Shown here one piece after another: positions 1 through 34,867 of a stretch of 64,000 bases of DNA; position 1 is the first letter of the stretch; each line of letters opens with the position of its first letter. This stretch comes from Phycisphaerae bacterium. GTDB lineage: Bacteria > Planctomycetota > Phycisphaerae > WQYP01. The stretch spans positions 78,134 through 142,133 of the forward strand of contig DASZZD010000013.1 in NCBI GenBank assembly GCA_035545015.1. The letters are read 5' to 3'. The position numbers were made by a program, and so were the translations under genes. The notes under the pieces are model-generated. The model saw only the letters and a list, made by a program, of their open reading frames with translations, was not told where the DNA came from and did no database searches.

Positions 1-396
1 CGTTGACGCCGATGCGGATGGGGATGCCGCGGTCTTTGCAGGCGTCGATGACCTGTTCGACCTGGGCCTTGTCCTGGATGTTGCCGGGGTTGAGGCGGAT
101 TTTGTGGACGCCGGCTTCGATGGCTTCCATGGCGCGCTGGAAGTGGAAGTGGACGTCGGCGACGATCGGGACTTTGACCTGTTTGAGGATTTCCTTGAGG
201 GCGTCGGTGTCTTTGCGTTCGGGGACGGCGACGCGGACGATGTCGGCGCCGGCCTTGTGGAGCTTGTTGATTTCGGCGACGCACTTATCGATGTCGTGGG
301 TGTAGCCGGAGGTCATGGTCTGGACGGAGACCGGGGCATCGCCGCCGATGAGGACGTTGCCGACTCGAACTTGTCGCGTTTTGCGCCGCTGAATCA
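1..396 (-). CDS. ispG: 4-hydroxy-3-methylbut-2-enyl diphosphate synthase (IspG/GcpE), N-terminal part; the gene continues past the left window edge
   Basis: Reverse translation gives MIQRRKTRQVRVGNVLIGGDAPVSVQTMT...GIPIRIGVN, the characteristic IspG N-terminus. Start codon is the complement of 394-396. Confidence 0.85.
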
Positions 397-794
397 TCGT
401 GGCTCCTAGCCGCCGTGAAAATGAAAAAATCCGAAACGAGTATTGTATCCGGGGATTGGGGAGGTGCTCAATTGGGGAGGCCAAGGTGCGCAGTCAGGTG
501 CGCAGCAAAATCGCGTTTTTGCCGAAGAGTCTCCAAGGTGCGCATGAACATGAGAGAACGCGGGTGGGCGGGGTTTGTGTTAAAATGGTCAATATGCGCA
601 GTTTGGTGAATGGTTATTTGCATATTCTTCTCCCGAGTGGGCGGTGCGCGTGGGCTGCCCTTTAGTAAGAACGGATGGGGCGGGGGAAAGGTTCCCGAAT
701 TTTTTGCGAATTTTTGGTGGGGGGCGGAGGGGCACGGGCGGGACGCCCGTGCCACAGGGGGCCTGGGCCACATTCAGGGGGCCTTGGGTCACGT

Positions 795-1565
795 TCAGGG
801 GGTGGGGGGAGTGGACCAGATTTGGCGGTAGCGGCCCTGTACGGGGACGGTGGGTTCGACGTGGCGGATTTTTTTGTAGGCGGCCCAGAGCAGGAGGCCG
901 TGGGAGGGGCGGAGGTAGCCGGGGAAGTCGGTGTAGAAGCGGTAGTCGCGTTCGGCGGCGAGGGAGGCGGGGGCGAGGGGGACGGCGGTGAAGCGGAGGT
1001 CGATTTCGGCGAAGCCATTGGCGAGGTAGAAGTCGCGGAAGAGGGTGGGGTTGAAGTTGACGAAGCCGTGGTCGGGCCAGTCGACGGGGGCGTGGTGGAT
1101 GGCGAGGCCACCGGGTTTGAGCATGCGGGCGACGTTGAAGAAGGCGTCCTTGAGGGAGAAGACGTGTTCGAGGGTGCCGCCGTCAAAGAGGAGGTCGAAG
1201 CGGTTTTCGAGGTTATTGGGGACGGGGAGGTTGAGGTCGTGGAGGAAGTCTGGGCGTTCGTAGTCGGAGGCGTCCATGGCGAGGACGTTGGCGGTCTGGA
1301 AGCCGAGGGCGGCGAAGAGGGTTTTCTGGTGGATGGCGCGGGCGCGTTCTTTGGCGCCGGCCCAGGCGAAGCCGGTAGTGGGGAGGATTTCGGCGGGGGG
1401 GAGGTCGCGAGCGGGGATATTCTTTTCGTGGAGGAAGGCGCGGAGTTCGTCGTAGGAGCAATAGACGTCCTGGACGCCGAGGGTGAGGAGTTGGCCGGAG
1501 CGATCGAGCTCGGCGCGGCGGAGGGTGTCGGTGAAGAGTTCGACGTCGTAGAACTTGATGCCCAT
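795..1565 (-). CDS. class I SAM-dependent methyltransferase
   Basis: 257 aa beginning MGIKFYDVELF, with a LDLGCG-like fold and DLLFDGGTLEHV motif. The ATG is preceded by a T-rich leader with no Shine-Dalgarno sequence. Confidence 0.7.
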   Translation of the reverse strand: MGIKFYDVELFTDTLRRAELDRSGQLLTLGVQDVYCSYDELRAFLHEKNIPARDLPPAEILPTTGFAWAGAKERARAIHQKTLFAALGFQTANVLAMDASDYERPDFLHDLNLPVPNNLENRFDLLFDGGTLEHVFSLKDAFFNVARMLKPGGLAIHHAPVDWPDHGFVNFNPTLFRDFYLANGFAEIDLRFTAVPLAPASLAAERDYRFYTDFPGYLRPSHGLLLWAAYKKIRHVEPTVPVQGRYRQIWSTPPTP

Positions 1566-1570
1566 GGGGT

Positions 1571-1640
1571 TCCGGTGAAAAAAAAAAGAAAAAAGAAAAA
1601 CGAAAGACGAAAGACGAAAGACGAAACGGGGGGGAAAGAC
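1571..1640. repeat. A10/A6/A5 homopolymer tracts followed by a 3.5x tandem heptamer (GAAAGAC) in the leader of the methyltransferase gene
   Basis: Direct reading gives gaaaaaaaaaagaaaaaagaaaaacgaaagacgaaagacgaaagacgaaac. Confidence 0.8.
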
Positions 1641-1653
1641 GGGATGGGGAGGG

Positions 1654-2775
1654 TTAGCGGGCGTAGAGGATGAGGTCGGACCAGTGGTGGGGGGCGTGGT
1701 GGCCGAGGTAGAGGCGGTAGGTGGGGTGGAGGGATTTGATGAGGGCGGGGAGTTGCCAGAGGTCTGGGGCGTGGTGGTAGAGGCAGATTTGGAGTTTTGG
1801 TGCGGAGCGGCGGATGAGGGATTGGGCGCCGCGGAGGGCGTCGTGCTCGGCGCCTTCGATGTCGAGCTTGATGAGGGTGGGGGAGATGCGGTGCTGGTCG
1901 CAGTAGGAATCGAGGGAGCGGATTTTGACGCGGGTTGGGGCATCGACGGCGATGCGGCTGGCGACTGGGGAGGAGGCGTCTTCGAGGAACGTGGTTTCGC
2001 CATCGGCGGCGCCAAGGGCGGCGGGGACGGGGAGGATGCGGTGTTGCAGGGAATCGCGTGCGATGCGGTCGTGGAGGCGGCGGAAATTTTCGGGCGAGGG
2101 TTCGAAGGCGTGGATGCGGCCGGCGTCGGGGCGATCGCCCATGGTTTGGAGGAAGAGGGCTGCGGTGTCGCCATCGAAGGCACCGGCGTCGATGACTTCG
2201 TCGCCGGGCTGGGCGCGGACGAGGGGGTGCTGGTATTCGCGGTAGGTGGCGGGGCGGACGAAGGAGACGCGGCGGGTGAGGCGGTAGCGGAGGACGGCGC
2301 GGAGGGCTTCACGGGAGAATTTGTCAGCGAGGACGGTGTCGAGCCATTCGAGGCGGTCCCAGGCGTCGAGGAGGGCGGGGGCGTCGAAATGGTCTTGGCC
2401 CATGATGGGGTTTTCGCCGGGGAGAGGGGCGAGGTGAGAGGCGAAATCGTGGGAGTATATCCAGCGTTGGACGGCGAGTTGGCGGAGGCGGTGTTCGGCG
2501 GGCTGGCATTGAGCGAGTGCGACGACGACGATGCCGGTGAAGCCGTGGAGGATGTCGGTGGGGGAGACGGGGAGGCCGTGGATGGAGGTGTGATGTGTGA
2601 GGGGGTCGTCGTCGACGAAGGCGCGGAAGTGGACGCCGGGGGTGTGGGCGTGGTGGTGGAGGAACTGCCGGCCGCCGTTGCCGGCGCCGTAGATGATGGC
2701 ATCGGAAGGCCTGGGGAAGGGGGCGGGGAATCGGCGAGCGAAGGCCAATTCGGATGCGAGTTCGTCCGCAAGCAT
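1654..2775 (-). CDS. FkbM-family methyltransferase
   Basis: 374 aa. The C-terminal half (VIDAGAFDGDTAALFL...HAFEPSPENFRRL...IKLDIEGAEHDAL) matches the Methyltransf_21/FkbM domain. Confidence 0.7.
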   Translation of the reverse strand: MLADELASELAFARRFPAPFPRPSDAIIYGAGNGGRQFLHHHAHTPGVHFRAFVDDDPLTHHTSIHGLPVSPTDILHGFTGIVVVALAQCQPAEHRLRQLAVQRWIYSHDFASHLAPLPGENPIMGQDHFDAPALLDAWDRLEWLDTVLADKFSREALRAVLRYRLTRRVSFVRPATYREYQHPLVRAQPGDEVIDAGAFDGDTAALFLQTMGDRPDAGRIHAFEPSPENFRRLHDRIARDSLQHRILPVPAALGAADGETTFLEDASSPVASRIAVDAPTRVKIRSLDSYCDQHRISPTLIKLDIEGAEHDALRGAQSLIRRSAPKLQICLYHHAPDLWQLPALIKSLHPTYRLYLGHHAPHHWSDLILYAR

Positions 2776-2916
2776 GGAGGCGTGTTCCTCAGGGGACGCG
2801 CATCGCCGGAAAAAGGGATTGGGGGGCGTGCGCGCCGGTGGGTTTTCTATCGACCGGGGGAAGTTCCGCCCGATAACAATTCGATTGACCTTCTCCCCAA
2901 TGCCCAAGCGCAGGAG

Positions 2917-3636
2917 ATGCCCATGGCGGCGACAGCGGTTGAAGCGGCTTCGGTGGCGATCTTGACGATTGCGACGGGCCGGTATTTCGAGGCGTTCGTG
3001 CCGGGGCTGGTGGCGTCGGTGCACGAGCGATTCATGCCGGAGCATCGGCGGGAGATGTTCATCCTGACGGATCAGACAGCGGCGATTCCGCATGCGACGC
3101 TGCTGCCGATTGCGCACCAGGCATGGCCGTTTTCGACGTTGCTGCGGTTTCATTTCATTTTGCAGCATGCGGCGGCGTATGCGGACTTTGATTATTTTTT
3201 TTACATTGATGCGGACATGGTGGTGACGGAGCGGATCACGGGGGGGATTTTGTCGGCGGAGGGGCTATCGGCGACGGAGCATCCGGGGTATTGGCCGGGG
3301 AAGCGTGGGACGTTCGAGCGGAATCCGGGGTCGGCGGCGTTTTTGCCACGGTCGTATCGTGGGCCGTACTACCAGGGCTGTTTTTTTGGCGGGCCGACGG
3401 GGCGGATGCTGGCGATGGCGGAGGAGTTGAAGGAGCGGATTGACGGGGACTTGTCGCAGAAGCCGCCGCTGATTGCGGAGTGGCATGATGAGTCACATTT
3501 GAACTGGTATTTGGCGCAGCATCCGCCGGCATTGTCGTTGCCGCCGAGTTATGCGTATGTGGACGCGTACAGGCTGCCGGTGCCGCGGAAGATTGTGCAT
3601 TTGCCGAAGAATCATGGGGCGATGCGGGCGGGGTGA
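2917..3636 (+). CDS. GT6-family glycosyltransferase (histo-blood-group ABO / alpha-1,3-galactosyltransferase-like)
   Basis: 240 aa. Motifs FFYIDADMVV (DxD), GPYYQGCFFGGP, AEWHDESHLNWYL and HLPKNHGAMR align with the GTA/GTB/alpha3GalT signatures FCMDVDMEF, GDFYYLGGFFGG, AVWHDESHLNKYL and VPKNHQAVRNP. Confidence 0.75.
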   Translation: MPMAATAVEAASVAILTIATGRYFEAFVPGLVASVHERFMPEHRREMFILTDQTAAIPHATLLPIAHQAWPFSTLLRFHFILQHAAAYADFDYFFYIDADMVVTERITGGILSAEGLSATEHPGYWPGKRGTFERNPGSAAFLPRSYRGPYYQGCFFGGPTGRMLAMAEELKERIDGDLSQKPPLIAEWHDESHLNWYLAQHPPALSLPPSYAYVDAYRLPVPRKIVHLPKNHGAMRAG

Positions 3637-3746
3637 GGGGAATGGTAAATGGTAAATGGTAATTGGGGAGTGGGGTGCGTTGGGAAGAGGGCTGGGGGGG
3701 GCGGGATGGCGTTGCGGTTTGTGGGGCTGCCTATTTTGCTGAGTGA

Positions 3747-4745
3747 CTAGATGGCGGCTGCGTGCATGTAGGCTCCGAAGGGTTCGGCGCGTTCCTCGAC
3801 GTCTATTTGTGCCTGGCGCGCCTTTTTTACGACGGCCACGTAGCGGCCGGTGAGCACGCGCAGGAATGCGTCTCCGGGGAAGCCTTTTCGGCCGATGCGT
3901 TGCAGGTTTCCCTCGGCGAGCTTTCGCAGCCAGCGCATCGCGGCGGCGCAGAATTCGGGGGTGGCTTCGAGGCGATCGAAGGCGAGTGCGGCATGCAGGC
4001 GGCGTTCGGCGGGGGTTGCCTGGATTCCCAGGCGGTCGCGGAGGAAGGAGAGTTGCAGAGCGACGCTGGCGTGTTGCTGTTGGGCGGCGTGGCGGGCGCC
4101 GACGCTGTTTTCGTGGATACGATAGCGCAGCAGCACTTCGGGCATATTGGCGAGGCCCCAGCGTGCGCTGGCTTCGATCCAGAGCGCGTAATCTTCGACG
4201 TGGCGCGCGCGGGTTTGATAGCGCAGGCCGGTGGGGGAGTGGGGGAGTCCAAAAATTTCGCGGCGCATCATGACGGCGGGATGGCCGAGGGTATTGCGAA
4301 ACACGAGTCCGCTTTCCACCGCTCCGGGATCGGTGGCATAGCGCAGGAGGCCGCGGCGTTGTCCGGCGGCATCGATCTGTTCGAGCCATCCGCCGAGGAC
4401 GCCGATAGCGGGATGTTCCTCGAGGAAAGCGACCTGCCGGGCCAGGCGTTGGGGCATCATCACATCATCGGCGTCCATGCGCGCGAGGTAGCGTCCGCGG
4501 GCGCTGGCGAGCAGGCGGTTGAGCGCCGGCACGACGCCGGCATTGGGCTGGCGGACGACGCGGAGGCGGCGATCTTTGCGTGCCAGCGCCTCGAGCCATT
4601 CGCCGCTGCCATCGGTCGAGCCATCATCACAGGCCAGCAGCTCCCATTGCACACCCTCCTGTGCGAGGACACTTGCGATCGCATCGCCTAGAAATCCCGC
4701 GGCGGCCCCGGCATTGAAGACCGGCATGAGGACACTGACGAGCAC
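3747..4745 (-). CDS. GT2-family glycosyltransferase
   Basis: VSVLMPVFNAG...LACDDGSTDGS...RMDADDV motifs. I chose the GTG start at 4745, which has a gaaagg RBS; the start is uncertain. Confidence 0.7.
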   Translation of the reverse strand: MLVSVLMPVFNAGAAAGFLGDAIASVLAQEGVQWELLACDDGSTDGSGEWLEALARKDRRLRVVRQPNAGVVPALNRLLASARGRYLARMDADDVMMPQRLARQVAFLEEHPAIGVLGGWLEQIDAAGQRRGLLRYATDPGAVESGLVFRNTLGHPAVMMRREIFGLPHSPTGLRYQTRARHVEDYALWIEASARWGLANMPEVLLRYRIHENSVGARHAAQQQHASVALQLSFLRDRLGIQATPAERRLHAALAFDRLEATPEFCAAAMRWLRKLAEGNLQRIGRKGFPGDAFLRVLTGRYVAVVKKARQAQIDVEERAEPFGAYMHAAAI

Positions 4746-4899
4746 GGGGAACCTTTCAGAGACGGCAAATGGCAAAATTGTCAAATCGTTTAATCGACCA
4801 TCTGCCTTCCACTTACGCAGAAAAATCCCGGATGCGCGGCGACCGGTGAAGGGGGCTGCGGACTTCACGAGCGGCGGCCGTTTGCCCGATAATGTGTCC

Positions 4900-5910
4900 A
4901 TGCACCGGCCGTTACGCATTCTCAGCACGTCGTTGTTTTATTACTACGGGGACACGCGCGGGATTGAGCCGCAGTTTTATTACCTGGTGAAAGTGCCGCA
5001 ATCGATGGGGCACGAGGTGGATTTTTTCGACTGGCACACGCACGCGCGGGGGGAGATGGGGGGCAGCGTGCACATGCGGCGGTTGTTTCTGAATGTGCTG
5101 CGGTCGGGGCGGTACGATGCGGCGTTCATCGCGACGTTCAAAGAGGAGTTCGACCAGGAGACGCTGGAGGAGGCCAAGAGGCTGACGACGACGTTCGCGT
5201 TCAACTCGGACGACGAATGGCGGTGGGCGGATTATTCGCAGGGGCGGGCGCCGTGGTATTCGTTCATGGTGACGAATTCGCCGACGGTTCACGCGCGGTT
5301 CAAGGGATCGACGCCGAACCTTCTGCATTGCCAGTGGGCTTGCACGGGTTTCTGGAACGGGCGGGACACGAAGAAGGACGTGGACTTTTCGTTCGCGGGC
5401 ATGATCCATGGGACGCGCAAGGAGCAGATTCAGGCGCTGCACCAGCGTGCGGGACTGGCGGCGTTCGGGATGGGGGCGAAGGAGCTGGGTCTGGCGGCGG
5501 GTGAAAATGTTCCTGAGGACCTGCGCGATGCGAGGTTCCAGACGACGCTGCCGTTTGAGACGATCAATCAGGTGTGGAATCGCAGCAAGGTGTCGTTCAC
5601 GCCATTGGATTCGTCGGACGGGAGGACGCGGCAGATCAAATCGCGCATTTTCGACATGGGGTTGTCGCGGACGCTGATGCTGGCGCACGGGGCGCCGGAG
5701 CTGGACAGGTATTACGAACCGGGGAAGGAATACGTACCGTTCGAGACGCTGGAGGAAGCGGCGGAGAAGGCGGGGTTTTATGTGAGGAACGAGGGGGCGC
5801 GGCGGGAGATCGCGGAAGCGTATGCGCGGCGGACGCAGGGTGAACATTTGTGGTCGCAGCGTTTGACGGGGCTTCTGAAGGAGGCGGCGCTTTTGAAGGA
5901 GGCGCTGTAG
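4900..5910 (+). CDS. CgeB-like glycosyltransferase (DUF3880 / Glyco_trans_1_2)
   Basis: 337 aa. Overall similarity to the CgeB spore-maturation glycosyltransferase family, with a C-terminal GT1-like RIFDMG...G motif. Confidence 0.5.
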   Translation: MHRPLRILSTSLFYYYGDTRGIEPQFYYLVKVPQSMGHEVDFFDWHTHARGEMGGSVHMRRLFLNVLRSGRYDAAFIATFKEEFDQETLEEAKRLTTTFAFNSDDEWRWADYSQGRAPWYSFMVTNSPTVHARFKGSTPNLLHCQWACTGFWNGRDTKKDVDFSFAGMIHGTRKEQIQALHQRAGLAAFGMGAKELGLAAGENVPEDLRDARFQTTLPFETINQVWNRSKVSFTPLDSSDGRTRQIKSRIFDMGLSRTLMLAHGAPELDRYYEPGKEYVPFETLEEAAEKAGFYVRNEGARREIAEAYARRTQGEHLWSQRLTGLLKEAALLKEAL

Positions 5911-5959
5911 GCGGGCGCGCGGTGCGGCGGGGGCCGGGGGGCGCTGCTGCGAGCGCTCC

Positions 5960-6247
5960 TCATTTTCTCCGTGCCCGCTCCCGCAAGCGGGCGGTTGGCT
6001 CATCCGTCGTGACGTTCCTGGGGATGCCCCACCACGCCCACCGTTGCAGCAGCGCCATTGCCATAGCGAAAATAATACCTCCGTATGTCAGGCGATGCTG
6101 TCCGGGGCCCGGCCCTCCGTAGAAAGCCGCTCCAAGCATGAACCCCACGCCCAGGGCCATCACTGGACCCCAAAGGCTTCGCACCCACCGCTGCGGATCG
6201 ACGTGGCGGTAGACCAATTTAATGGCGAGTCCCAGGCCCATTGGCAA
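5960..6247 (-). CDS. small hypothetical membrane protein with two predicted TM helices
   Basis: 96 aa containing a hydrophobic VMALGVGFMLGAAFYGG stretch and IIFAMAMALL. Confidence 0.35.
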   Translation of the reverse strand: MPMGLGLAIKLVYRHVDPQRWVRSLWGPVMALGVGFMLGAAFYGGPGPGQHRLTYGGIIFAMAMALLQRWAWWGIPRNVTTDEPTARLRERARRK

Positions 6248-6382: not shown

Positions 6383-6763
6383 TTAAGGGTGGCGTTCCAT
6401 TTGGAGGACGGTTTCCCACTCGGTGGCGGTGACGGGGACGACGCTTAAGCGGCCAATGCGGACGAGGGGCCAGGCGGCAAGGTCTTGGTGTTGCTTGATC
6501 TGGGCGAGGGTGATGGGGCGTGCGAGGGGCCGGCCGGGTTTGATGGTCACGGCGCCGTCCTGGGCGTGGACGACTTTGGCGAGTCCGACCACGGCTTTTT
6601 GTTTGCCGGTGTGGTAGAGCATGACCTGGTCGCCTTTTTTCATGGCTTTGAGGTTGTTGACGGCGGCGGGGTTGGTTACGCCCTCCCAAGGCGTTTCGCC
6701 ATCGCGGAGGAGATCGGCGAAGGAATAGTCTGTCGGCTCGGTTTTGAGCAACCAATACGGCAC
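6383..6763 (-). CDS. EVE-domain (PUA-like) protein
   Basis: PYWLLKTEP...W.G.TN..A.NNLK.MK.GD.V..YH is the typical EVE/PUA-like N-terminus. GTG start with a ggaga RBS. Confidence 0.65.
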   Translation of the reverse strand: MPYWLLKTEPTDYSFADLLRDGETPWEGVTNPAAVNNLKAMKKGDQVMLYHTGKQKAVVGLAKVVHAQDGAVTIKPGRPLARPITLAQIKQHQDLAAWPLVRIGRLSVVPVTATEWETVLQMERHP

Positions 6764-6815
6764 AGTGTCTCCTGGGGAAGGGCGGGCGCTTCTGGTGGTG
6801 GGTTGTGGCGGCGAA

Positions 6816-7325
6816 TCAGCGGCGAGTTTTGGGCTTTTTTTTGGCGGCGCCGTTGATTTTTTTGCCGATGGCTTTAGTGGCGACGGCGCGTGCGGCGACG
6901 GCGATTTTGCGTTCGGCGCGGGTCTTTTTTTCGGGGGAGAGGATGGCCTGGAGAAAGGCGATGACGTCGGGGTGTCCGCCGGTTTTAGCGTGGTCGAGGA
7001 GTGAGATGCCGTGGGGTCCTTTGCTGGCGGCGAGGGAGGGATCATCTGCGAGCATGGCTTTGACGATGGCGAGTTTACCGAGTGCTGCGGCGGAGAAGAG
7101 ATCGACGCGGGCCCCTTTGGAGAGGAGGAATTCGGCGATATCGCGGCGGCCGCTATGGGCAGCGGCGCCGAGGGGCGTTTCCCAGTCGCCGTTGCCCCAA
7201 TCCCAGGCGGCATGGACGACGGTGGGATAGAGGGTGACGAGCTCGCGGACGCGCGCGAGATCGGCATGGGAACGTCCGACCACCTCTCCGACGACTCCGG
7301 GTGGCAGGGGCAGAATGCTCGGCAT
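6816..7325 (-). CDS. ankyrin-repeat protein
   Basis: Repeats of TPLGAAAHSGRRDIAEFLLSKGARVD and ISLLDHAKTGGHPDVIAFL fit the ANK consensus. Confidence 0.7.
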   Translation of the reverse strand: MPSILPLPPGVVGEVVGRSHADLARVRELVTLYPTVVHAAWDWGNGDWETPLGAAAHSGRRDIAEFLLSKGARVDLFSAAALGKLAIVKAMLADDPSLAASKGPHGISLLDHAKTGGHPDVIAFLQAILSPEKKTRAERKIAVAARAVATKAIGKKINGAAKKKPKTRR

Positions 7326-12015: not shown

Positions 12016-12247
12016 GATACTCGACGCGTTCAGCAAACCGCAGCTCCGGGACACACGTGGGGAGGGGGGCAACTGTGTTTTCTGCACACCGGGAAAGTCC
12101 GTCGAAGATAGGGCAAAGGGGTAGGCTTGTCACGCGAGCCTGCGGGGTGCGGCAACGTTCGCGCCCGAGGCTCCAGGTGGGGCGATGGCGCGGGGTCAGT
12201 CGGGGTTCGGTTCGATTGGTTGAACTGGGGGTTGCGGGGCGGGCTGC

Positions 12248-12994
12248 TTGACTGCCGCCCGGGTTGCCGACATGCTGACTTCTCGCATGAAGGAAACGCT
12301 CGAACGCATTGTTCCCGGAGCCGCCGACCAGCGTCACATAGCCGGCGACGATACGCTGCAGCTTCACCTGGCGCGTTACCAGTTTGCGGCGCAGTTCGCC
12401 CGGGGGAAGGTGCTGGATATCGCGTGCGGCGTGGGATATGGGTCAGCGGTCCTGGCGGAGGTTGCGAAGGTGGGGCATGTGACGGGGGTGGATCTGTCGG
12501 AGGAAGCGCTCGATGTGGCGCGGCAGCGGTATGCGCGTCCGAACATCACGTTCGTTCAGGGGGACTGCATGACGTACCGGGGCGACCCGGTCGAGACGAT
12601 CGTGTCGCTGGAGACGGTGGAACACCTTCCGGAGCCGGAGAAATTCATTCGCCGGATTGCGGAGCAACTGCTGTCGCAGGGGACGCTGATCGCATCAGTG
12701 CCGGTGACGCCGTCGATGGATTTCAATCCCTATCATCTGCACGATTTCACGCCGCGGCGGTTTGAGGCGCTGATGCGGTCGGCGGGGTTGCAGGTGGTGG
12801 ACCGGTTTCTGCAGGTGCAGAGCTACCGACCGGTGGCGGCGCTGCGGCGGAAGGAAGCGCGGATGGCGGACGCGCGGCGGAACCTTTCGGGGTATTACGT
12901 GCGACATCCGGGGAAGCTGATGCTTCGGCTGTGCTCTGTGGTGCGAGACGGGTTTGCGAACAAGTACCTGACGCTGGCTTGCAGAAAGGTCTGA
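12248..12994 (+). CDS. class I SAM-dependent methyltransferase
   Basis: VLDIACGVGYGS and IVSLETVEHL motifs. Confidence 0.7.
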   Translation: MTAARVADMLTSRMKETLERIVPGAADQRHIAGDDTLQLHLARYQFAAQFARGKVLDIACGVGYGSAVLAEVAKVGHVTGVDLSEEALDVARQRYARPNITFVQGDCMTYRGDPVETIVSLETVEHLPEPEKFIRRIAEQLLSQGTLIASVPVTPSMDFNPYHLHDFTPRRFEALMRSAGLQVVDRFLQVQSYRPVAALRRKEARMADARRNLSGYYVRHPGKLMLRLCSVVRDGFANKYLTLACRKV

Positions 12995-12996
12995 GC

Positions 12997-13674
12997 ATGG
13001 GCGAGCAGACCTTTGTGGTGATCGCGGCGTACAACGAGCAGGAAATGATCGGGCAGGTGGTGCGGTCGCTGGCGCCGCTGGCGGCGCGGGTGGTGGTGGT
13101 GGACGATGGCAGCGGCGACGAATCGGGCGAGCGTGCGTTTGAGGCGGGCGCGACGGTGCTGAGGCATCCGTTGAACCTGGGGCAGGGCGCGGCGTTGCAG
13201 ACGGGGATCGACTTTGCGCTTGGGAAGGGTGCGGAGTACATTGTGACGTTTGACGCGGACGGGCAGCACGCGGCATCGGACATAGGCGGCGCGCTGGAGG
13301 CGCTGCGGCGGTCGGGCGTGGATGTGGTGCTGGGGTCGCGGTTTCTGGGGCGTGCGATCGACATGCCTGCGGCGAAGCGGCTGGTGCTGCGGCTGGCGGT
13401 TGCGTTCACGCGTGTGACGACGGGTCTGAAGCTGACGGACACACACAACGGATTTCGGGTTCTGACGCGCTCGGCGGCGGAGCGGATCAAGCTGCGTCAG
13501 AACCGCATGTCGCACGCGTCGGACCTTCTGAGCCAGATCGCGGAGCTCAAGCTGCGGTATGAGGAGTATCCGGTGGAAGTGAGATACACGGAATACTCGC
13601 GGCGGAAGGGCCAGCCGCTGACGGCGGCGTTTCATATTCTGGTGGATTCAGCGGTCGGGAGGATGCTGAAATGA
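12997..13674 (+). CDS. GT2 glycosyltransferase, soluble polyprenol-phosphate sugar synthase-like (DPM1/Ppm-like)
   Basis: FVVIAAYNEQ, VVVVDDGSGDES and TFDADGQH motifs. aaagg RBS. Confidence 0.75.
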   Translation: MGEQTFVVIAAYNEQEMIGQVVRSLAPLAARVVVVDDGSGDESGERAFEAGATVLRHPLNLGQGAALQTGIDFALGKGAEYIVTFDADGQHAASDIGGALEALRRSGVDVVLGSRFLGRAIDMPAAKRLVLRLAVAFTRVTTGLKLTDTHNGFRVLTRSAAERIKLRQNRMSHASDLLSQIAELKLRYEEYPVEVRYTEYSRRKGQPLTAAFHILVDSAVGRMLK

Positions 13675-14039
13675 CGATCAAAATCATTCTGACGCTGCTG
13701 CTGGGGACGCTGGCGCTGTACGCGGCGCGCAACATGCGTGGGGCGCTGGCGCCGATTGCGCTGAGTTTTATCGCGGCGAGCCTCGCCGGGGTGTTTTTCG
13801 TATGGAATCCGCAGGCGGCGAACAACGTGGCGGCCCTCGTGGGGATCGGCCGGGGCGCGGACCTGATTTTCTATTTTGGCTTTATTTTCGGGCTGTTCAG
13901 CATCTTCGTGCTGCACCTGCGCATCGCGCTGCTGAACCGGCAGCTCACGGTTCTGGCTCGCCATATCGCCCTGAACGCCGCGCGTGAACATCCGGCGAGC
14001 GGCCCCCACGAGGATTCCGTGCATGCGTCCGCCCGCTAA
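13671..14039 (+). CDS. DUF2304-like small membrane protein
   Basis: 123 aa with 3 hydrophobic helices. ATGA start/stop overlap with the preceding GT2 gene; this family commonly follows GT2 genes. Confidence 0.5.
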   Translation: MTIKIILTLLLGTLALYAARNMRGALAPIALSFIAASLAGVFFVWNPQAANNVAALVGIGRGADLIFYFGFIFGLFSIFVLHLRIALLNRQLTVLARHIALNAAREHPASGPHEDSVHASAR

Positions 14040-15420
14040 GGCCTTGCTCGAGCGGGCGCTGTTCATCCTGGCGGCCACGGCGCTGCTTTGCTGGCCGATG
14101 GTGTTCAACGGCTTTCCGATTGTGTTCGGGGATTCGCTGCTTTATTCGCTGACGGCGTTCACGGGCCGGTCGATGGCGTTTCGGCCAAGCTGTTATCCGT
14201 ACCTGCTGGCCGGGGCGGGGGTGTTCCAATCGGTAGCGCCGCTGTGCGTTTTTCAATCGCTGATGGCGGCGGCGGCGCTGGAGATCGCGCTGCGGCGCGG
14301 CGCGGGGCTGGGCATTGTGCGGGCCCTGGGGGTTGTGGTTGGACTCGCGCTGGCGACGACGCTTCCGTGGTGGACGTCCTCCCTGATGCCGGACATTTTC
14401 TTCGGGCTGGCGATTCTTTCGGCGGGGGTGCTGGCTTTTGCGGAGAATCTGGCGCGTGTCGACCGGGTGGTGCTGTGGGCGATCCTGGTGATTTCCGTGG
14501 TGGAGCACGTGGCTCTTCCGCCGCCCCTGTTGGTTCTGGCGGTACTTTATGTTGGTTTGCAACTGTGCCGGCGGCGCCGCCCCACGGGGACATCGGTGGG
14601 CATCCTGGCGGTGGCGATCCTGGGGTTTGTGAGCTACCCCGTTCTGAACGCGCTGACGGCGAACACGTTCGCCCCGTCGGACAACACGTCCAAATACATC
14701 CTGTCGCGCATGGCCGGCGACGGGCTGCTGGACGACACGGACATTCGCCACTTCACGGCGAAGGCCCCGGATCGACAGGCCGAGCTGCTCACGCGGTTTC
14801 ACGCAATGGAGTCGCTTCCGGCCAATATTCCTCTGGGGTACCTTTCGCCGCAATCGGCGCGCACAGGCGCGTTCTCGCACGATCCGGGCTCTCCGTTTGC
14901 GGACTGGTCCTCGGACGGCCGGCTTCCGTCGTTCGGCGAGATGATCGTGCGCAACGTGCGGCGGAAACCGCTGCAGAACGTTCGCGCCGTGGTCGCGGGC
15001 ACGGGGCGTCTGCTGCTTTCGGGCGATTTCCCCCCGTTCGTGGAACAGATGCATCCGTCGCCGCCGCTGCCGATATTGGCCCATGACACAAACGGGTTTA
15101 CGAGCAGCCGGCAGAACCACGGGGCGCTCGGTGTGCGGGCGTGGAATCTGGTGATCGTCCCGGTTTACTGGGCGTTCGCGGCGGCGGGGATGGCGGCGCT
15201 GCTGTTGTCGATCTGGCGGCGAGACGCCTGGCAAGGCGCCGGGCTGCGGGTGGCGGCGTTCGTGCTGTGCTTCACGCTTCTGCAGGCGGCGATCGTGTAT
15301 GCGCTGTCGGGCGACTTCCCCCGCTACCAGTCGCGCATGTCGTGGATCGTCGTGCTGGCGGGGTTCCTGGCGAGCGTTTCGGTGGTGCGCCGGATGCGAT
15401 GCCAGCGGGGGCGGGGGTGA
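14020..15420 (+). CDS. polytopic integral membrane protein, candidate GT-C-type polyprenyl-phosphate-dependent glycosyltransferase
   Basis: 467 aa with at least 10 hydrophobic segments. Translationally coupled to the DUF2304 gene. Confidence 0.45.
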   Translation, partial: CMRPPAKALLERALFILAATALLCWPMVFNGFPIVFGDSLLYSLTAFTGRSMAFRPSCYPYLLAGAGVFQSVAPLCVFQSLMAAAALEIALRRGAGLGIVRALGVVVGLALATTLPWWTSSLMPDIFFGLAILSAGVLAFAENLARVDRVVLWAILVISVVEHVALPPPLLVLAVLYVGLQLCRRRRPTGTSVGILAVAILGFVSYPVLNALTANTFAPSDNTSKYILSRMAGDGLLDDTDIRHFTAKAPDRQAELLTRFHAMESLPANIPLGYLSPQSARTGAFSHDPGSPFADWSSDGRLPSFGEMIVRNVRRKPLQNVRAVVAGTGRLLLSGDFPPFVEQMHPSPPLPILAHDTNGFTSSRQNHGALGVRAWNLVIVPVYWAFAAAGMAALLLSIWRRDAWQGAGLRVAAFVLCFTLLQAAIVYALSGDFPRYQSRMSWIVVLAGFLASVSVVRRMRCQRGRG

Positions 15421-18555: not shown

Positions 18556-19734
18556 TCACCAACTGACTTCAAATGACAGGCGCACCGAGGCCCAGGTGTC
18601 CCATCCGTGCTGCCCCTTGAACTCGGGCGACTCGCTGGTCCAGCTATAGGTGAACTCGAAATACTTCAAAAAGCGGTGGGACAACCCGTACTCGACCCCG
18701 AAGATTCCATGCACGGGGGAGGCGGTCACCGGATCGCGGTCGGAAAAAGCATCTCCCTCCAGGAGCGAATTCCGGCCCACGACCTGGCCATAGGGTCGGG
18801 CGAAGATAAAGAAGGACTGCTTGCGGAAAAAATCCTCCCAGGCATAGGGATCGTCGATGCCCGCGGCGCGATAGGTGAAGTCGCCGGGCATGGCGAGGTT
18901 TCCGGGGCCAAAATCGTCGGGCATGTTCCAGCCCGCGCGGAGGATCGCCCCCGCGTGGGCTTCATCGAGCACGGAGCCGGCGGTCAGGCCCAGCTCCGGC
19001 AGCACCTGCACCCTGGGCGCCCACGGCTGCCACTCGGCCGGCGGGGTCCAGGCATCGAGGCGCCACCGCCGGTCATATTTGATCGCAAATTCCCCCTCGT
19101 CGTTGATCTGGTTGCTCCAACCGCGCGGCATCGTGTAACCGAACGTGTGGTGCACCATCTCCTGCGCATTTTGCGCCAGAGAGGAGGGGCCCATGATGCC
19201 CACATCCAGCTCGAGGGCTTCATACACGGGCACCTTGGCCTGGCGATTCGCCCGCTGGAAGAAGAGTCCTCCATACGTGTAACCCGCGAACGGGCGGTCG
19301 CTGGGAATCGGCTGCGTCAGCTCGTAGTGCTTGGGAGTGTACATGGTCAAGGCGCCCACGAACCCCATGGCGTGATCAGTGGTCGCTTTGGGAAACTCGC
19401 CCGCGATGGAGGGCACGTTGTCGAGGAGCGCATCGACCCAGGGCGCCTGCCAGGCCACGGAAGCTCCGACGCCCGAGGTGTAATGCTTGTCGTGGCGATC
19501 GATGGCCTTGGCCCATCCGCCGTCGTTGTCCCAATAGAGGGTCCATTTCGTGGCATATGTGTTTTGGCCGCGCTCGCCCAGAAATGCCACTTGTCTGACT
19601 GCCGCGGGCATATCCTCCGGACGGAGGGTCAAGCCGGGCGCTTCCAAGGGCCCGGCTGCCCGCGCGATTCCGCACCCGCCGCACACCGCCGCCGCCAACA
19701 CCCGCGCCCATCGTCCACCCATCGGATTCCTCAC
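18556..19734 (-). CDS. LpxR-family (DUF2219) outer-membrane protein, putative lipid A deacylase-like
   Basis: Signal peptide, YWDNDGG...DRHDKHYTSG motif resembling the LpxR N-terminal signature, and a C-terminal aromatic residue (…FEVSW). Confidence 0.45.
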   Translation of the reverse strand: MRNPMGGRWARVLAAAVCGGCGIARAAGPLEAPGLTLRPEDMPAAVRQVAFLGERGQNTYATKWTLYWDNDGGWAKAIDRHDKHYTSGVGASVAWQAPWVDALLDNVPSIAGEFPKATTDHAMGFVGALTMYTPKHYELTQPIPSDRPFAGYTYGGLFFQRANRQAKVPVYEALELDVGIMGPSSLAQNAQEMVHHTFGYTMPRGWSNQINDEGEFAIKYDRRWRLDAWTPPAEWQPWAPRVQVLPELGLTAGSVLDEAHAGAILRAGWNMPDDFGPGNLAMPGDFTYRAAGIDDPYAWEDFFRKQSFFIFARPYGQVVGRNSLLEGDAFSDRDPVTASPVHGIFGVEYGLSHRFLKYFEFTYSWTSESPEFKGQHGWDTWASVRLSFEVSW

Positions 19735-26856: not shown

Positions 26857-26862
26857 TCGGCG

Positions 26863-32745: not shown

Positions 32746-32823
32746 ATCCGCAGAGAGAGAATCTCTGTGACAAACTTTTCGCACGACCTTCAAACGAACC
32801 AGGAACTTGAGGAGTAGCTAAGG

Positions 32824-34254
<1,431 letters not shown>

Positions 34255-34366
34255 TCGCGCAGCCTCCCCGGGGGCGCAGCGCTCTTCCTGCGCCCGACGC
34301 GCAACACCTGCGCGTCCTCCCACTGCCTCCTTCAAGATTCCCCGAGGATTCCAACACCGGCCCCCG

Positions 34367-34383: not shown

Positions 34384-34412
34384 TAGCATCCGCACCCAGC
34401 AAGGATTCGCCT

Positions 34413-34844: not shown

Positions 34845-34867
34845 CTCCGGTTTTTTCCTGGATACTT

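What the first reader, a model, noticed from the sequence alone, without database searches (positions are those of the whole stretch)
795..5910. Glycan-modification island with a bacterial GT6 (ABO/alpha-1,3-GalT-like) enzyme retaining the DxD motif, two methyltransferases, a GT2 and a CgeB-like glycosyltransferase
The 2917-3636 product aligns motif for motif with mammalian GT6 enzymes (DAD for DVD, FFGG, WHDESHLN, PKNH). GT6 is rare in bacteria, and the characterised Bacteroides homologue replaced DxD with NxN. This one keeps D-A-D, implying metal-dependent activity. It is embedded between an FkbM methyltransferase, a class I methyltransferase, a GT2 and a CgeB-type glycosyltransferase on alternating strands. 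That mosaic is typical of O-antigen, capsule or protein (possibly flagellin) glycosylation loci and a candidate horizontally acquired region.
Basis: partly seen in the sequence, partly recalled or inferred. Interest (0 to 1): 0.55.

Follow-up and report, generated by a model that had tools for sequence, protein, structure and literature searches.

The report
Phycisphaerae GT6 glycan-methylation gene cassette
A soil planctomycete (class Phycisphaerae) carries a real bacterial relative of the human ABO blood-group enzymes inside a conserved five-gene sugar-adding and sugar-methylating cassette, but enzymes of this metal-binding type are already known and turn out to be common in environmental microbes, so the find is sound but fairly ordinary.

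Summary
Window 795-5910 encodes five genes: an atypical class I methyltransferase-like protein (795-1565, -), an FkbM methyltransferase (1654-2775, -), a GT6 glycosyltransferase (2917-3636, +), a GT2 (3747-4745, -) and a PF13524 "CgeB-like" glycosyltransferase (4900-5910, +). GT6 membership is solid: Pfam 95 bits against a cutoff of 25, model TM 0.84-0.89 to ABO, alpha3GT and BoGT6a, and all catalytic residues present.

- DxD retention is not unusual. A DxD "minimal" prokaryote/phage clade was described in 2012, and the Parachlamydia enzyme was shown to need metal.
- In my censuses about 90% or more of related prokaryotic GT6 domains have DxD.
- GT6 occurs in at least 333 of 185,579 species genomes and in more than 2,000 clusters at 50% identity.
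- Nothing marks a recent island: GC is 63.9% against 64.4%, flanks are syntenic in a relative at 79% identity, and there are no tRNAs, integrases or bounding repeats.
- No Wzx/Wzy, initiating transferase or flagellin gene is adjacent.

New here: the cassette recurs intact in a different genomic context. The enzyme belongs to an uncharacterised Gln-Gly-Cys/His specificity class. Only this class is linked to the 256-aa methyltransferase family. Most likely function: metal-dependent alpha-1,3-Gal(NAc) capping of an O-methylated surface glycan.

The parts
795..1565 (-). 256-aa atypical class I SAM-methyltransferase-like protein ('MT254'). The glycine-rich motif I is replaced by a conserved L-G-V/R-Q-D. 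It also has a conserved D98, D110-L-N and DGGTLEHVF.
   Evidence: Methyltransf_11 scores 22.4 bits against a cutoff of 21.2, and there is no NCBIfam hit. 39 homologues were found, most without any precomputed Pfam domain. The AF2 model has pLDDT 94, and all top Foldseek hits are class I methyltransferases (NovO, UbiG, BioC, PNMT) at probability 1.0 but TM only 0.35-0.5.
1654..2775 (-). 373-aa FkbM-family methyltransferase with an N-terminal Rossmann-like extension
   Evidence: PF05050 scores 57.5 bits and TIGR01444 89.5 bits. PDB 2py6 'Methyltransferase FkbM' matches at E 3e-19 over residues 143-369. Residues 26-88 resemble NeuD/PglB/VioB N-terminal domains only weakly.
2776..2916 (.). 141-bp divergent intergenic region between the FkbM gene and the GT6 gene (presumed promoters; none detected by the sigma-70 scan)
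   Evidence: Sequence; the scan found nothing here.
2917..3636 (+). 239-aa GT6 glycosyltransferase consisting of the catalytic domain only. Key residues: D98-A-D100, H122, G124, T132, Y151, Q153-G-C155, W189-H-D-E192, H228, K231, R237.
   Evidence: PF03414 scores 95.1 bits. PDB sequence matches: ABO E 1.3e-25 and BoGT6a E 4.8e-25. The AF2 model has pLDDT 96.6. Foldseek TM is 0.84-0.89 to GTA/GTB, alpha3GT and BoGT6a. The protein is 100% identical to NCBI HVS70075.1, annotated 'hypothetical protein', Phycisphaerae MAG.
3747..4745 (-). 332-aa GT2 (GT-A fold, inverting family) glycosyltransferase with a C-terminal helical extension. The GTG start at 4745 was chosen by homology.
   Evidence: PF00535 scores 102.5 bits. 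The start was set by alignment to the L001 and L005 orthologues, which begin VLVSVL.../VPRVSVV.... Nearest named families, all far below their equivalog cutoffs, are EpsE, TuaG and WcaA. PDB matches are chondroitin synthase and GalT1.
4746..4899 (.). 154-bp divergent intergenic region between the GT2 gene and the PF13524 gene, with one sigma-70-like site at 4864-4893 (+)
   Evidence: TTCACG-18-GATAAT, 9 of 12 matches. This is a consensus match only.
4900..5910 (+). 336-aa PF13524 (Glyco_trans_1_2, 'CgeB-like') putative GT-B glycosyltransferase
   Evidence: PF13524 scores 62.6 bits over residues 207-326. There is no NCBIfam hit and no solved relative by sequence.
5936..5961 (+). Terminator-like hairpin (10-bp stem followed by a T-rich tail) after the PF13524 gene
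   Evidence: This is a consensus match; the number of such sites is no higher than in shuffled sequence.
1..397 (-). Left flank: 5' part of ispG (gcpE), which runs off the window. This housekeeping gene bounds the cassette.
   Evidence: The translation [28 protein letters not shown]... appears. The syntenic gene in L001 carries PF04551 GcpE.
6383..6856 (-). Right flank: EVE-domain protein, followed by ankyrin-repeat, ketohexokinase-like, nuoN and nuoM genes
   Evidence: PF01878 scores 119 bits. The gene order is the same in L001.

Best explanation
Window 795-5910 is a conserved, chromosomally fixed five-gene glycan-tailoring cassette of a Phycisphaerae (Planctomycetota) bacterium. All five products are predicted to be soluble cytoplasmic enzymes.

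The centrepiece is a minimal, catalytic-domain-only GT6 of the DxD type. I infer that it is a retaining, Mn2+/Mg2+-dependent transferase that puts an alpha-1,3-linked hexose on a beta-Gal-type acceptor. The hexose is more likely Gal than GalNAc, because of Gln153-Gly-Cys155 at the positions that discriminate the donor in ABO enzymes.

The GT2 (inverting) and the PF13524 GT-B enzyme would add neighbouring sugars. The FkbM methyltransferase and the atypical 256-aa methyltransferase would O-methylate the product.

The result would be a short, methylated, alpha-Gal(NAc)-capped side branch or terminus on a cell-surface glycan (LPS or exopolysaccharide). The initiation, export and polymerisation genes for that glycan must lie elsewhere in the genome.

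Shown: the gene identities, fold, catalytic residues, cassette conservation and gene-neighbourhood associations.
Inferred: metal dependence, donor, acceptor, methylation of sugars and the surface-glycan destination.
For: GT6 identity:
- PF03414 scores 95 bits.
- Sequence E-values to ABO and BoGT6a are about 1e-25.
- The model has pLDDT 96.6 and TM 0.84-0.89 to GT6 structures.
- The residues equivalent to human Y126, R188, D211, D213, H233, G235, T245, Y264, W300, H301, D302, E303, K346 and R352 are all conserved.

Metal dependence:
- The DxD motif is intact.
- The DxD enzyme of Parachlamydia needs Mg2+/Mn2+, whereas NxN BoGT6a does not (PMC3516806, PMC3961637).

Cassette as a functional unit:
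- The same five genes in the same order and orientation occur in GCA_035548175.1 (GT6 79% identical, same flanks).
- They also occur on a 179-kb contig with entirely different flanks (GT6 59% identical).

The partner enzymes recur with GT6 elsewhere:
- Single-chain fusions exist: GT6-FkbM (P0113), GT6-GT2 (P0092, P0094, P0195) and GT6-GT4/GT1 (P0099, P0110, P0127).
- An Omnitrophota ORF (L080) carries a methyltransferase domain related to the 256-aa protein (28% identity over 121 aa, E 3e-10) upstream of its GT6 domain.
- In cyanophage P-SSM2 an unannotated FkbM gene sits directly upstream of GT6, and a class I methyltransferase lies nearby.
- Homologues of the 256-aa methyltransferase lie next to GT6 in 10 of 33 loci with a Q-G-C-type GT6 and in none of about 130 other GT6 domains (Fisher p 3e-8, not corrected for relatedness).

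Surface-glycan destination:
- More distant homologues of the 256-aa methyltransferase sit in Wzx/EpsG/GT4/O-acetyltransferase polysaccharide loci.
- Locus L101 reads Gmd-Fcl-GT11-GT6-MT-MT-GT6-...-GT25.
- The genome has lipid A machinery (LpxR).

Solubility: no hydrophobic segments longer than beta-strand 1 in any of the five proteins.
Against: - No biochemical data exist for any Q-G-C/His-type GT6, so the donor call rests on analogy with GTB Met266/Ala268 and alpha3GT His280.
- The residues that accommodate a 2'-fucosylated acceptor in GTA and BoGT6a (His122, Gly124) are conserved. Yet no GT11 fucosyltransferase or GDP-fucose synthesis gene occurs in the 64-kb window or in the two orthologous loci, so the acceptor is unknown.
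- No flippase, polymerase, ABC exporter or initiating phosphoglycosyltransferase lies within about 10 kb. The surface-glycan destination is therefore inferred from other organisms' loci.
- The 256-aa protein lacks the canonical GxGxG SAM loop, so its methyltransferase activity is not assured.
- The NJ tree has no bootstrap support values.
Confidence: 0.55

Rival explanations
1. The GT6 is a blood-group-A-type enzyme like PaGT6 and BoGT6a. It would transfer GalNAc from UDP-GalNAc onto a Fuc-alpha1,2-Gal acceptor, so the cassette would make an A-antigen mimic.
For: The acceptor residues shared by GTA and BoGT6a are conserved: His122 (A1), Gly124 (A2), Thr132, Tyr151, Trp189 and Glu192 (PMC3516806). 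Both characterised prokaryotic enzymes use UDP-GalNAc and H-type acceptors (PMC3516806).
Against: The donor-discriminating triplet is Q-G-C, not A-G-G (BoGT6a, P-SSM2) or L-G-G (GTA). It covaries with His instead of Ala/Ile at position A7: 87 of 93 Q-G-C domains have His, against 40 of 43 A-G-G domains with Ala, which marks a separate specificity class. Loci such as L095-L103 carry one gene of each class side by side, implying different jobs. No GT11 or GDP-fucose genes occur in the window, L001 or L005.
Confidence: 0.22
2. The cassette glycosylates a protein (flagellin or a cell-envelope protein) rather than a lipid-linked polysaccharide.
For: The window holds a flagellar cluster: FliF, FliG, FliI and FlgE with a sigma-54 regulator at 31.7-46.1 kb. 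All five enzymes are soluble. No lipid-carrier machinery is adjacent. I recall that PF13524 takes its 'CgeB' name from a Bacillus spore-surface maturation protein.
Against: The flagellar genes lie about 26 kb or more away, beyond nuo, gcv, dapA, frr and clpB. I found no flagellin or Maf-type gene. The cassette in L005 has no flagellar neighbours. Homologues of the 256-aa methyltransferase lie in Wzx/EpsG polysaccharide loci.
Confidence: 0.13
3. The cassette makes an intracellular polymethylated oligo- or polysaccharide, analogous in logic to mycobacterial methylglucose and methylmannose polysaccharides.
For: The cassette contains only glycosyltransferases and methyltransferases, with no export, polymerase or initiating genes. 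All products are soluble. The comparison with the mycobacterial systems comes from my own knowledge.
Against: To my knowledge no GT6 has been tied to an intracellular glycan. GT6 contexts elsewhere are LPS/EPS-like. There is no hydrolase or acyltransferase of the kind found in those mycobacterial clusters.
Confidence: 0.07
4. The region is a recently acquired genomic island.
For: GT6 is phylogenetically patchy: about 0.2% of species across many phyla and DPANN archaea. The same cassette sits in a different genomic context in L005, where its GC is lower than the flanks (0.53-0.60 against 0.61-0.66). The codon-usage distance of the cassette genes is high (1.5-2.3 against a mean of 1.27).
Against: In this genome GC is 63.9% against 64.4%, and GC3 of 0.75-0.88 is within the range of other genes. 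The codon-usage distance is fully matched by other high-skew genes at 44-56 kb (2.06-2.11), so it reflects the genome's extreme strand skew. Insertion between ispG and the EVE gene is shared with a relative at 79% identity. There are no tRNAs, integrases or bounding repeats.
Confidence: 0.1

Closest known systems
Clade-1 'minimal DXD' prokaryote/phage GT6: Parachlamydia acanthamoebae PaGT6 and cyanophage P-SSM2 GT6 (Thiyagarajan et al. 2012, PMC3516806)
   Same: Both are catalytic-domain-only proteins of about 230-240 aa with an intact DxD and no transmembrane, stem or C-terminal membrane-binding (BHB) domain. PaGT6 is metal-dependent. P-SSM2 GT6 is 37.5% identical to the window protein. Its gene neighbourhood likewise holds an FkbM methyltransferase, a class I methyltransferase and GT-B glycosyltransferases.
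   Different: P-SSM2 has the A-G-G donor triplet and Ala at position A7, as in GTA; the window enzyme has Q-G-C and His. P-SSM2 and L101 carry a GT11 fucosyltransferase next to GT6; this cassette does not. In a rough NJ tree the window enzyme forms its own Phycisphaerae subclade (57-79% identity inside it, 46% or less outside), away from the Chlamydiae/Dependentiae group.
Bacteroides ovatus BoGT6a (PDB 4AYJ, 4AYL, 4CJ8)
   Same: It shares the GT-A fold (TM 0.85-0.89, rmsd about 2 A) at about 32% identity. The same catalytic Glu192, Trp189, His122, Gly124 and Lys231 are present, even at nearly the same residue numbers.
   Different: BoGT6a has N95-A-N97 and is metal-independent. It has an A-G-G donor triplet, Ile228 and a C-terminal extension (PMC3961637). 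The window protein scores below the NCBIfam NF041524 cutoff (155 bits against 250).
Vertebrate GT6: human GTA/GTB and bovine alpha-1,3-galactosyltransferase
   Same: DxD, WHDESHLN and PKNH are conserved, and the last two are identical to the human sequence. E-values are about 1e-25 and TM about 0.84.
   Different: Identity is about 31%. There is no cytoplasmic tail, membrane anchor or stem. The triplet is Q-G-C rather than L-G-G (GTA), M-G-A (GTB) or H-A-A (alpha3GT). D326 is replaced by Val215 and A343 by His228.
Aquatic metagenome GT6 loci such as L101 (Gmd-Fcl-GT11-GT6[AGG]-MT-MT-GT6[QGC]-...-GT25)
   Same: They contain a Q-G-C/His-type GT6 together with a homologue of the 256-aa methyltransferase and a second methyltransferase.
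   Different: They also encode GDP-fucose synthesis, a GT11 and a second (A-G-G) GT6. All genes are on one strand, and there is no PF13524 gene.

Membership tests
CAZy GT6 / Pfam PF03414 | Profile match above the curated threshold, with no better match to another GT family | tested here: met
   PF03414 scores 95.1 bits against a cutoff of 25 and is the only Pfam hit.
CAZy GT6 / Pfam PF03414 | GT-A fold superimposable on solved GT6 structures | tested here: met
   The AF2 model has pLDDT 96.6. Foldseek TM is 0.84-0.89 to 3SXG, 1K4V and 4CJ8, and all of the 50 listed top hits are GT6.
CAZy GT6 / Pfam PF03414 | Catalytic Glu (human E303, BoGT6a E192) within W-H-D-E | tested here: met
   W189-H190-D191-E192 is present. 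D191, E192 and S193 are invariant in the 59-sequence alignment.
CAZy GT6 / Pfam PF03414 | C-terminal Lys and Arg that contact the UDP diphosphate (human K346 and R352) | tested here: met
   K231 and R237 align to K346 and R352.
CAZy GT6 / Pfam PF03414 | Retaining alpha-1,3 transfer of Gal or GalNAc from a UDP-sugar | not testable with these tools
   This needs an enzyme assay.
GT6 clade 1 (minimal DXD prokaryote/phage; PMC3516806) | DxD metal-binding motif retained | tested here: met
   D98-A-D100 aligns to human D211-V-D213 and to BoGT6a N95-A-N97.
GT6 clade 1 (minimal DXD prokaryote/phage; PMC3516806) | Catalytic domain only, with no stem, membrane anchor or BHB tail | tested here: met
   The protein is 239 aa and the model covers the whole chain. 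There is no hydrophobic segment beyond beta-strand 1.
GT6 clade 1 (minimal DXD prokaryote/phage; PMC3516806) | Activity dependent on a divalent metal | not testable with these tools
   Inferred from the DxD motif and the PaGT6 precedent only.
GT6 clade 3 (bacterial NXN, metal-independent, BoGT6a-like) / NCBIfam NF041524 | NxN in place of DxD; score above the NF041524 cutoff | tested here: not met
   The motif is DxD, not NxN. NF041524 scores 155.4 bits against a cutoff of 250.
FkbM methyltransferase family (PF05050 / TIGR01444) | Profile match above the curated thresholds | tested here: met
   PF05050 scores 57.5 against 22.7 and TIGR01444 89.5 against 37.7. PDB 2py6 matches at E 3e-19.
Class I SAM-dependent methyltransferase (for the 256-aa protein) | Rossmann-like methyltransferase fold | tested here: met
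   The model has pLDDT 94. The top 50 Foldseek hits are almost all class I methyltransferases or methyltransferase-fold proteins at probability about 1.0, but TM is only 0.35-0.5.
Class I SAM-dependent methyltransferase (for the 256-aa protein) | Glycine-rich motif I (GxGxG) and an acidic motif II residue for SAM binding | tested here: inconclusive
   Motif I is L-G-V-Q-D: G30 is invariant and Q32 nearly invariant, but there is no second Gly. D98 is invariant. The Pfam hit is marginal at 22.4 against 21.2.
GT2 (PF00535) | Profile match above threshold | tested here: met
   PF00535 scores 102.5 bits against 23.3. No NCBIfam equivalog is reached.
PF13524 Glyco_trans_1_2 ('CgeB-like') | Profile match above threshold | tested here: met
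   PF13524 scores 62.6 bits against 25, covering only residues 207-326. Orthology to B. subtilis CgeB was not tested.
O-antigen / capsule biosynthesis locus | Wzx/Wzy or an ABC exporter, plus an initiating phosphoglycosyltransferase, in the same locus | tested here: not met
   The neighbours are ispG, EVE, ankyrin-repeat, Khk, nuoN and nuoM. Not every ORF in the window was annotated.
Flagellin glycosylation island | Adjacency to flagellin or flagellar genes | tested here: not met
   The flagellar genes start about 26 kb away. There are none near the L005 cassette.
Recently acquired genomic island | Atypical composition, a tRNA or integrase at the border, flanking direct repeats, and absence from close relatives | tested here: not met
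   GC is 63.9% against 64.4%. There are no tRNAs and no bounding repeats. The cassette is present at the same site in the relative at 79% identity.

The most novel reading that the evidence does not exclude
The window enzyme exemplifies a large, biochemically uncharacterised specificity class of DxD GT6 enzymes. The class is defined by Gln-Gly-Cys at the ABO donor-discriminating positions, covarying with His at the acceptor 'A7' position. It is functionally coupled to a methyltransferase-like family that lacks any family annotation (motif I is LG[VR]QD). These pairs would make an O-methylated alpha-linked hexose epitope with a donor and/or acceptor specificity not yet seen in GT6, for example a methylated or non-fucosylated acceptor. 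They are spread across Planctomycetota, Omnitrophota, Bacteroidota and aquatic bacteria or phages.
Probability: 0.3. Interest if true: 0.45.

Novelty: new member of a known kind. Interest (0 to 1): 0.3.

Why it matters
GT6 enzymes make the ABO, alpha-Gal and Forssman antigens. Their microbial relatives bear on two questions: where the vertebrate genes came from, and which environmental or commensal microbes display blood-group-like epitopes.

This locus adds a Planctomycetota lineage. I found no paper mentioning GT6 in this phylum, and the public record calls the protein 'hypothetical'.

The locus also shows that DxD, not NxN, is the usual prokaryotic state in current data. It points to an untested specificity class (Q-G-C/His) that travels with two kinds of methyltransferase.

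That gives a concrete, cheap experiment: express the GT6 and the methyltransferases and identify the methylated product. On its own, however, the locus does not overturn anything known about the family.

Tried and rejected
- Exact look-up of the window's own GT6 protein on contigs found nothing on record, so the upstream flank was inferred from the relative L001.
- L003 and L004 seemed to replace the GT2 gene with two small plus-strand ORFs. Six-frame phmmer showed the GT2 gene is intact on the minus strand, so this was a gene-calling artefact.
- Codon-usage distance suggested that the cassette is atypical. I rejected this as evidence of transfer, because equally large distances occur in other genes with extreme GC3 skew.
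- I searched with BoGT6a to find E. coli O86 WbnI as a Gal-specific calibrator for the donor triplet. No E. coli protein was among the 120 listed hits. The search only showed that the 110 full-length proteins among those hits are all NxN, mostly with A-G-G.
- A literature search for WbnI donor determinants gave nothing usable.
- A metagenome scan for close relatives found none above 44% identity. The cassette is therefore known only from the window, L001 and its Logan copies, L005, and short contigs (P0003, P0005).
- The organism behind L005 could not be named.
- Promoter, terminator, tandem-repeat, tRNA and direct-repeat scans gave nothing beyond chance, apart from one plausible promoter and one terminator.
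- Sequence search of the PF13524 protein against the PDB found no relative.
- phmmer with Gmd, Fcl and GT11 queries found no fucose-pathway genes in the window, L001 or L005.

Full report
**1. What is there**

The window is 64.3% G+C. It comes from a Phycisphaerae (Planctomycetota) metagenome-assembled genome. The 2917-3636 product is 100% identical to NCBI HVS70075.1, which is annotated only as 'hypothetical protein' and sits on a 157-kb contig.

High G+C produces many long spurious ORFs on both strands. I picked the real frames using Pfam hits, third-position G+C and orthologues.

| Gene | Coordinates (strand) | Size | Main evidence |
|---|---|---|---|
| Methyltransferase-like protein | 795-1565 (-) | 256 aa | Methyltransf_11, 22.4 bits against a cutoff of 21.2 |
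| FkbM methyltransferase | 1654-2775 (-) | 373 aa | PF05050 57.5 bits; TIGR01444 89.5 bits |
| GT6 | 2917-3636 (+) | 239 aa | PF03414 95.1 bits, E 4.4e-27, only Pfam hit |
| GT2 | 3747-4745 (-) | 332 aa | PF00535 102.5 bits; GTG start set by homology |
| PF13524 'CgeB-like' glycosyltransferase | 4900-5910 (+) | 336 aa | PF13524 62.6 bits |

The left flank is the 5' end of ispG (1-397, -). The right flank is an EVE-domain gene, followed by ankyrin-repeat, ketohexokinase-like, nuoN and nuoM genes.

**2. The GT6 call**

Sequence search of the PDB gives human ABO transferases at E 1.3e-25 and Bacteroides ovatus BoGT6a at 4.8e-25. An AlphaFold2 model built on 59 homologues has mean pLDDT 96.6. Its 50 best Foldseek matches in the PDB are all GT6 structures (GTA/GTB, bovine alpha3GT, BoGT6a), with TM 0.84-0.89 normalised to the query.

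I made a three-way alignment whose human numbering I validated on more than 20 known residues. It shows these equivalences:

| Window residue | Human GTA/GTB residue |
|---|---|
| Y23 | Y126 |
| R77 | R188 |
| D98-A-D100 | D211-V-D213 |
| H122 | H233 |
| G124 | G235 |
| T132 | T245 |
| Y151 | Y264 |
| W189-H-D-E192 | W300-H-D-E303 |
| K231 | K346 |
| R237 | R352 |

**3. Is DxD retention remarkable? No.**

Thiyagarajan et al. 2012 (PMC3516806) already divided GT6 into three clades:
- minimal prokaryote/phage enzymes with DxD (cyanophage P-SSM2, marine metagenome homologues and Parachlamydia PaGT6);
- vertebrate enzymes;
- bacterial NxN enzymes with a C-terminal membrane-binding domain.

The same paper showed that PaGT6 transfers GalNAc to H antigen and is inactive without Mg2+/Mn2+. 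Pham et al. 2014 (PMC3961637) restate this.

My censuses agree:
- Of 91 database homologues, only three have NxN.
- Among the best 80 of 333 GT6 loci in one-genome-per-species GTDB contigs, 79 domains are DxD and 8 NxN.
- Among 80 metagenome loci, 80 are DxD and 9 NxN.
- Among 235 domains from the database and representative searches, 225 are DxD.

These lists are ranked by similarity to a DxD query, so they overstate the DxD share. The NxN clade is itself large: 882 proteins at E of 1e-10 or lower to BoGT6a, and the 110 full-length proteins among the 120 listed hits are all NxN.

'Rare in bacteria' holds only per species. At least 333 of 185,579 species representatives carry a GT6 (about 0.2%), a lower bound from a single peptide pattern. 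The carriers include Chlamydiota, Dependentiae, Pseudomonadota, Bacteroidota, Cyanobacteria, Acidobacteriota, Planctomycetota, Verrucomicrobiota, Omnitrophota, Bacillota and DPANN archaea. An exhaustive HMMER scan finds 2,269 clusters at 50% identity with E of 0.001 or lower.

The window protein fits clade 1. A literature search returned no paper mentioning GT6 in Planctomycetes.

**4. Placement and specificity class**

The protein forms a tight group with four other sequences (57-79% identity). The next relatives are at 46% or less. BoGT6a is at 32% and human ABO at 31%. The NJ tree has no bootstrap support values and should be read only as a sketch.

More informative are the positions that decide donor choice in ABO enzymes (266-268):

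| Enzyme | Triplet |
|---|---|
| GTA (GalNAc) | L-G-G |
| GTB (Gal) | M-G-A |
| BoGT6a and P-SSM2 | A-G-G |
| Window enzyme | Q153-G-C155 |

Across 235 domains, Q-G-C is the commonest state (93). It covaries with His at the acceptor position called A7 in PMC3516806: 87 of 93 Q-G-C domains have His. A-G-G and C-G-G go with Ala: 40 of 43 and 33 of 39.

So there are at least two specificity classes among DxD enzymes. The characterised BoGT6a and the P-SSM2 enzyme carry A-G-G, and I found no characterised enzyme with Q-G-C/His. I did not look at PaGT6's own triplet. Several aquatic loci carry one gene of each class side by side.

By analogy, I lean towards UDP-Gal as the donor. The polar His280 of alpha3GT recognises the 2-OH of Gal, and the bulkier residue at 268 in GTB excludes the N-acetyl group. 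Both points are established structure-function knowledge that I recalled rather than tested.

His122 and Gly124 match the enzymes that accept 2'-fucosylated Gal. However, no GT11, Gmd or Fcl homologue is present in the window or in the two orthologous loci. The acceptor is therefore open.

**5. The cassette is a unit**

The same five genes, in the same order and orientation, occur in Phycisphaerae MAG GCA_035548175.1. There the GT6 is 79% identical and the other four genes give E-values of 1e-137 to 1e-181. The cassette lies between the same ispG and EVE-Ank-Khk-nuo flanks.

The five genes also occur on a 179-kb contig (L005, GT6 59% identical) whose flanks are unrelated. In L005 there is also an extra 174-aa ORF, a 785-aa PF13524 protein and a DegT aminotransferase.

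The partner families recur with GT6 in unrelated organisms:
- Single polypeptides fuse GT6 to FkbM (P0113), to GT2 (P0092, P0094, P0195), to GT4/GT1 domains (P0099, P0110, P0127), and to GT31 plus GT11 (P0102, P0116).
- PF13524 genes abut GT6 in Acidobacteriota and Woesearchaeota loci.
- In cyanophage P-SSM2 the gene directly upstream of GT6, annotated 'hypothetical', is an FkbM methyltransferase (PF05050, 65 bits). A class I methyltransferase lies three genes further upstream.

**6. The 256-aa protein**

It has 39 database homologues, most without any precomputed Pfam domain. Conserved features are L-G-V/R-Q-D where methyltransferases have GxGxG, an invariant Asp98, D-L-N, and DGGTLEHVF.

Its model (pLDDT 94) matches class I methyltransferases and methyltransferase-fold proteins almost exclusively, but with modest TM of 0.35-0.5. 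I treat it as a divergent SAM methyltransferase, with the caveat that SAM binding is untested.

More distant homologues sit in polysaccharide loci with Wzx-type flippases, EpsG, GT4, TylF and O-acetyltransferases.

Homologues lie next to, or fused with, GT6 only where a Q-G-C-type GT6 is present:
- the three Phycisphaerae-type loci;
- an Omnitrophota ORF (L080) with a related methyltransferase domain upstream of its GT6 domain (28% identity over 121 aa, E 3e-10);
- Chitinophaga alhagiae;
- seven aquatic contigs arranged GT6(A-G-G) - MT - GT6(Q-G-C).

That is 10 of 33 loci with a Q-G-C-type GT6, against none of about 130 other GT6 domains. Fisher's exact test gives p = 3e-8, which overstates significance because many loci are related. 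One aquatic locus reads Gmd - Fcl - GT11 - GT6 - MT - MT - GT6 ... GT25, a classic fucosylated LPS/EPS tailoring set.

**7. Island and locus-type claims**

- Cassette G+C is 63.9% against 64.4% for the rest of the window.
- GC3 of 0.75-0.88 is within the range of other genes.
- The window has no tRNA, and no direct repeats bound the cassette. I saw no integrase among the ORFs I annotated.
- The insertion site is shared with a relative at 79% identity.

The high codon-usage distance of the cassette genes is matched by genes at 44-56 kb. It is caused by an extreme strand-specific G/C bias at third positions, not by foreign origin. Recent acquisition in this genome is therefore not supported.

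Older lateral movement of the whole cassette is plausible. It has a different context and lower G+C than its flanks in L005, and GT6 has a patchy distribution.

No flippase, polymerase, ABC exporter, initiating transferase or flagellin gene is adjacent. A flagellar cluster begins about 26 kb away, beyond housekeeping genes. All five proteins lack membrane-spanning segments.

**8. Best explanation**

The cassette is a soluble tailoring module. The GT2 and the PF13524 enzyme add neighbouring sugars. The DxD GT6 adds a metal-dependent alpha-1,3-Gal(NAc)-type cap. The two methyltransferases O-methylate the product. The target is most probably a surface glycan whose core machinery is encoded elsewhere.

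Rivals are an A-antigen-type GalNAc transferase, protein glycosylation, an intracellular methylated glycan and a recent island. They are listed with their tests in the rival explanations.

**9. Verdict**

The gene identification is correct and the gene-content description is useful. The claimed unusual feature (DxD) is the norm and already has a characterised precedent, and the island and locus-type readings lack support.

The modestly new elements are three:
- a Planctomycetota GT6 lineage that the public record calls 'hypothetical' (NF041524 scores 155 bits, below its 250 cutoff);
- a conserved five-gene cassette;
- the Q-G-C/His class linked to an unannotated methyltransferase family.

Noticed in passing
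whole window; strongest at 800-3600 and 39000-56000: G/C skew at third codon positions is extreme and independent of gene strand. On the plus strand it is +0.73 to +0.86 for genes on either strand at 0.8-3.6 kb, and about -0.7 to -0.8 at 39-56 kb. Cumulative G-C peaks near 29.5 kb and bottoms near 59 kb. Relatives L001 and L005 show the same patchy pattern, but orthologous genes differ sharply (FkbM +0.86 here against +0.06 in L001). I have no explanation, and it confounds codon-usage tests for gene transfer.
   Followed up: partly
window 12224-15417 (+): A second glycan module: a class I methyltransferase, a small GT2, DUF2304, and a 481-aa protein with about seven hydrophobic segments and no Pfam or NCBIfam match. 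It resembles a polyprenyl-phosphate-sugar system with an unannotated membrane glycosyltransferase. It is conserved in L001.
   Followed up: partly
window 31738-46144: A flagellar gene cluster with a histidine kinase, a sigma-54-dependent response regulator, FliF, FliG, FliI and FlgE, so the organism is probably motile.
   Followed up: partly
window 18556-19749 (-): An LpxR (lipid A 3'-O-deacylase) homologue, PF09982 at 212 bits. It indicates lipid A/LPS in this planctomycete.
   Followed up: no
window 26857-28385 (+): A low-molecular-weight phosphotyrosine phosphatase immediately followed by another GT2. This pairing is typical of exopolysaccharide regulation.
   Followed up: no
window 52528-55701 (-) and 46535-51163 (-): A 1,057-aa ORF with high GC3 and no Pfam domain, next to a 1,542-aa TPR-rich protein.
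   Followed up: no
window 1577-1626 and 3641-3666: Simple repeats lie in cassette spacers. There is an A-run plus (GAAAGAC) x4.6 between the FkbM and 256-aa methyltransferase genes, and (AATGGTA) x3.7 after GT6. The L001 spacer has only a weak echo (GTCTTT repeats). These could be slippage-prone tracts, but I did not test that.
   Followed up: partly
L171 (Prochlorococcus phage P-SSM2, AY939844.2 199598-202497): Two proteins annotated 'hypothetical' in the phage's GT6 gene cluster are methyltransferases. PSSM2_267, directly upstream of GT6, is FkbM family (PF05050, 65 bits). PSSM2_264 is a class I methyltransferase (26.8 bits).
   Followed up: yes
P0102, P0116, P0107 (database proteins): In P0102 and P0116 a single polypeptide combines GT31-type galactosyltransferase, GT11 fucosyltransferase and GT6 domains. 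All three steps needed to build an A/B-type antigen would then sit in one chain. P0107 combines GT11 and GT6 only.
   Followed up: no
L012, L013, L065, L070: GT6 genes with DxD occur on contigs assigned to DPANN archaea (Woesearchaeota, Nanoarchaeota). In L012 and L013 they lie beside GT2 and a 1,076-aa PF13524-like protein. The 2014 paper stated that GT6 had not been found in archaea (PMC3961637).
   Followed up: no
L095-L103 (aquatic metagenome contigs): Two GT6 paralogues of different specificity class (A-G-G/Ala and Q-G-C/His) flank a homologue of the 256-aa methyltransferase. In L101 they sit downstream of Gmd, Fcl and GT11.
   Followed up: partly
L003 and L004: Public gene calls replace the minus-strand GT2 gene with two short plus-strand ORFs. 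This is a gene-calling artefact of the high G+C content.
   Followed up: yes
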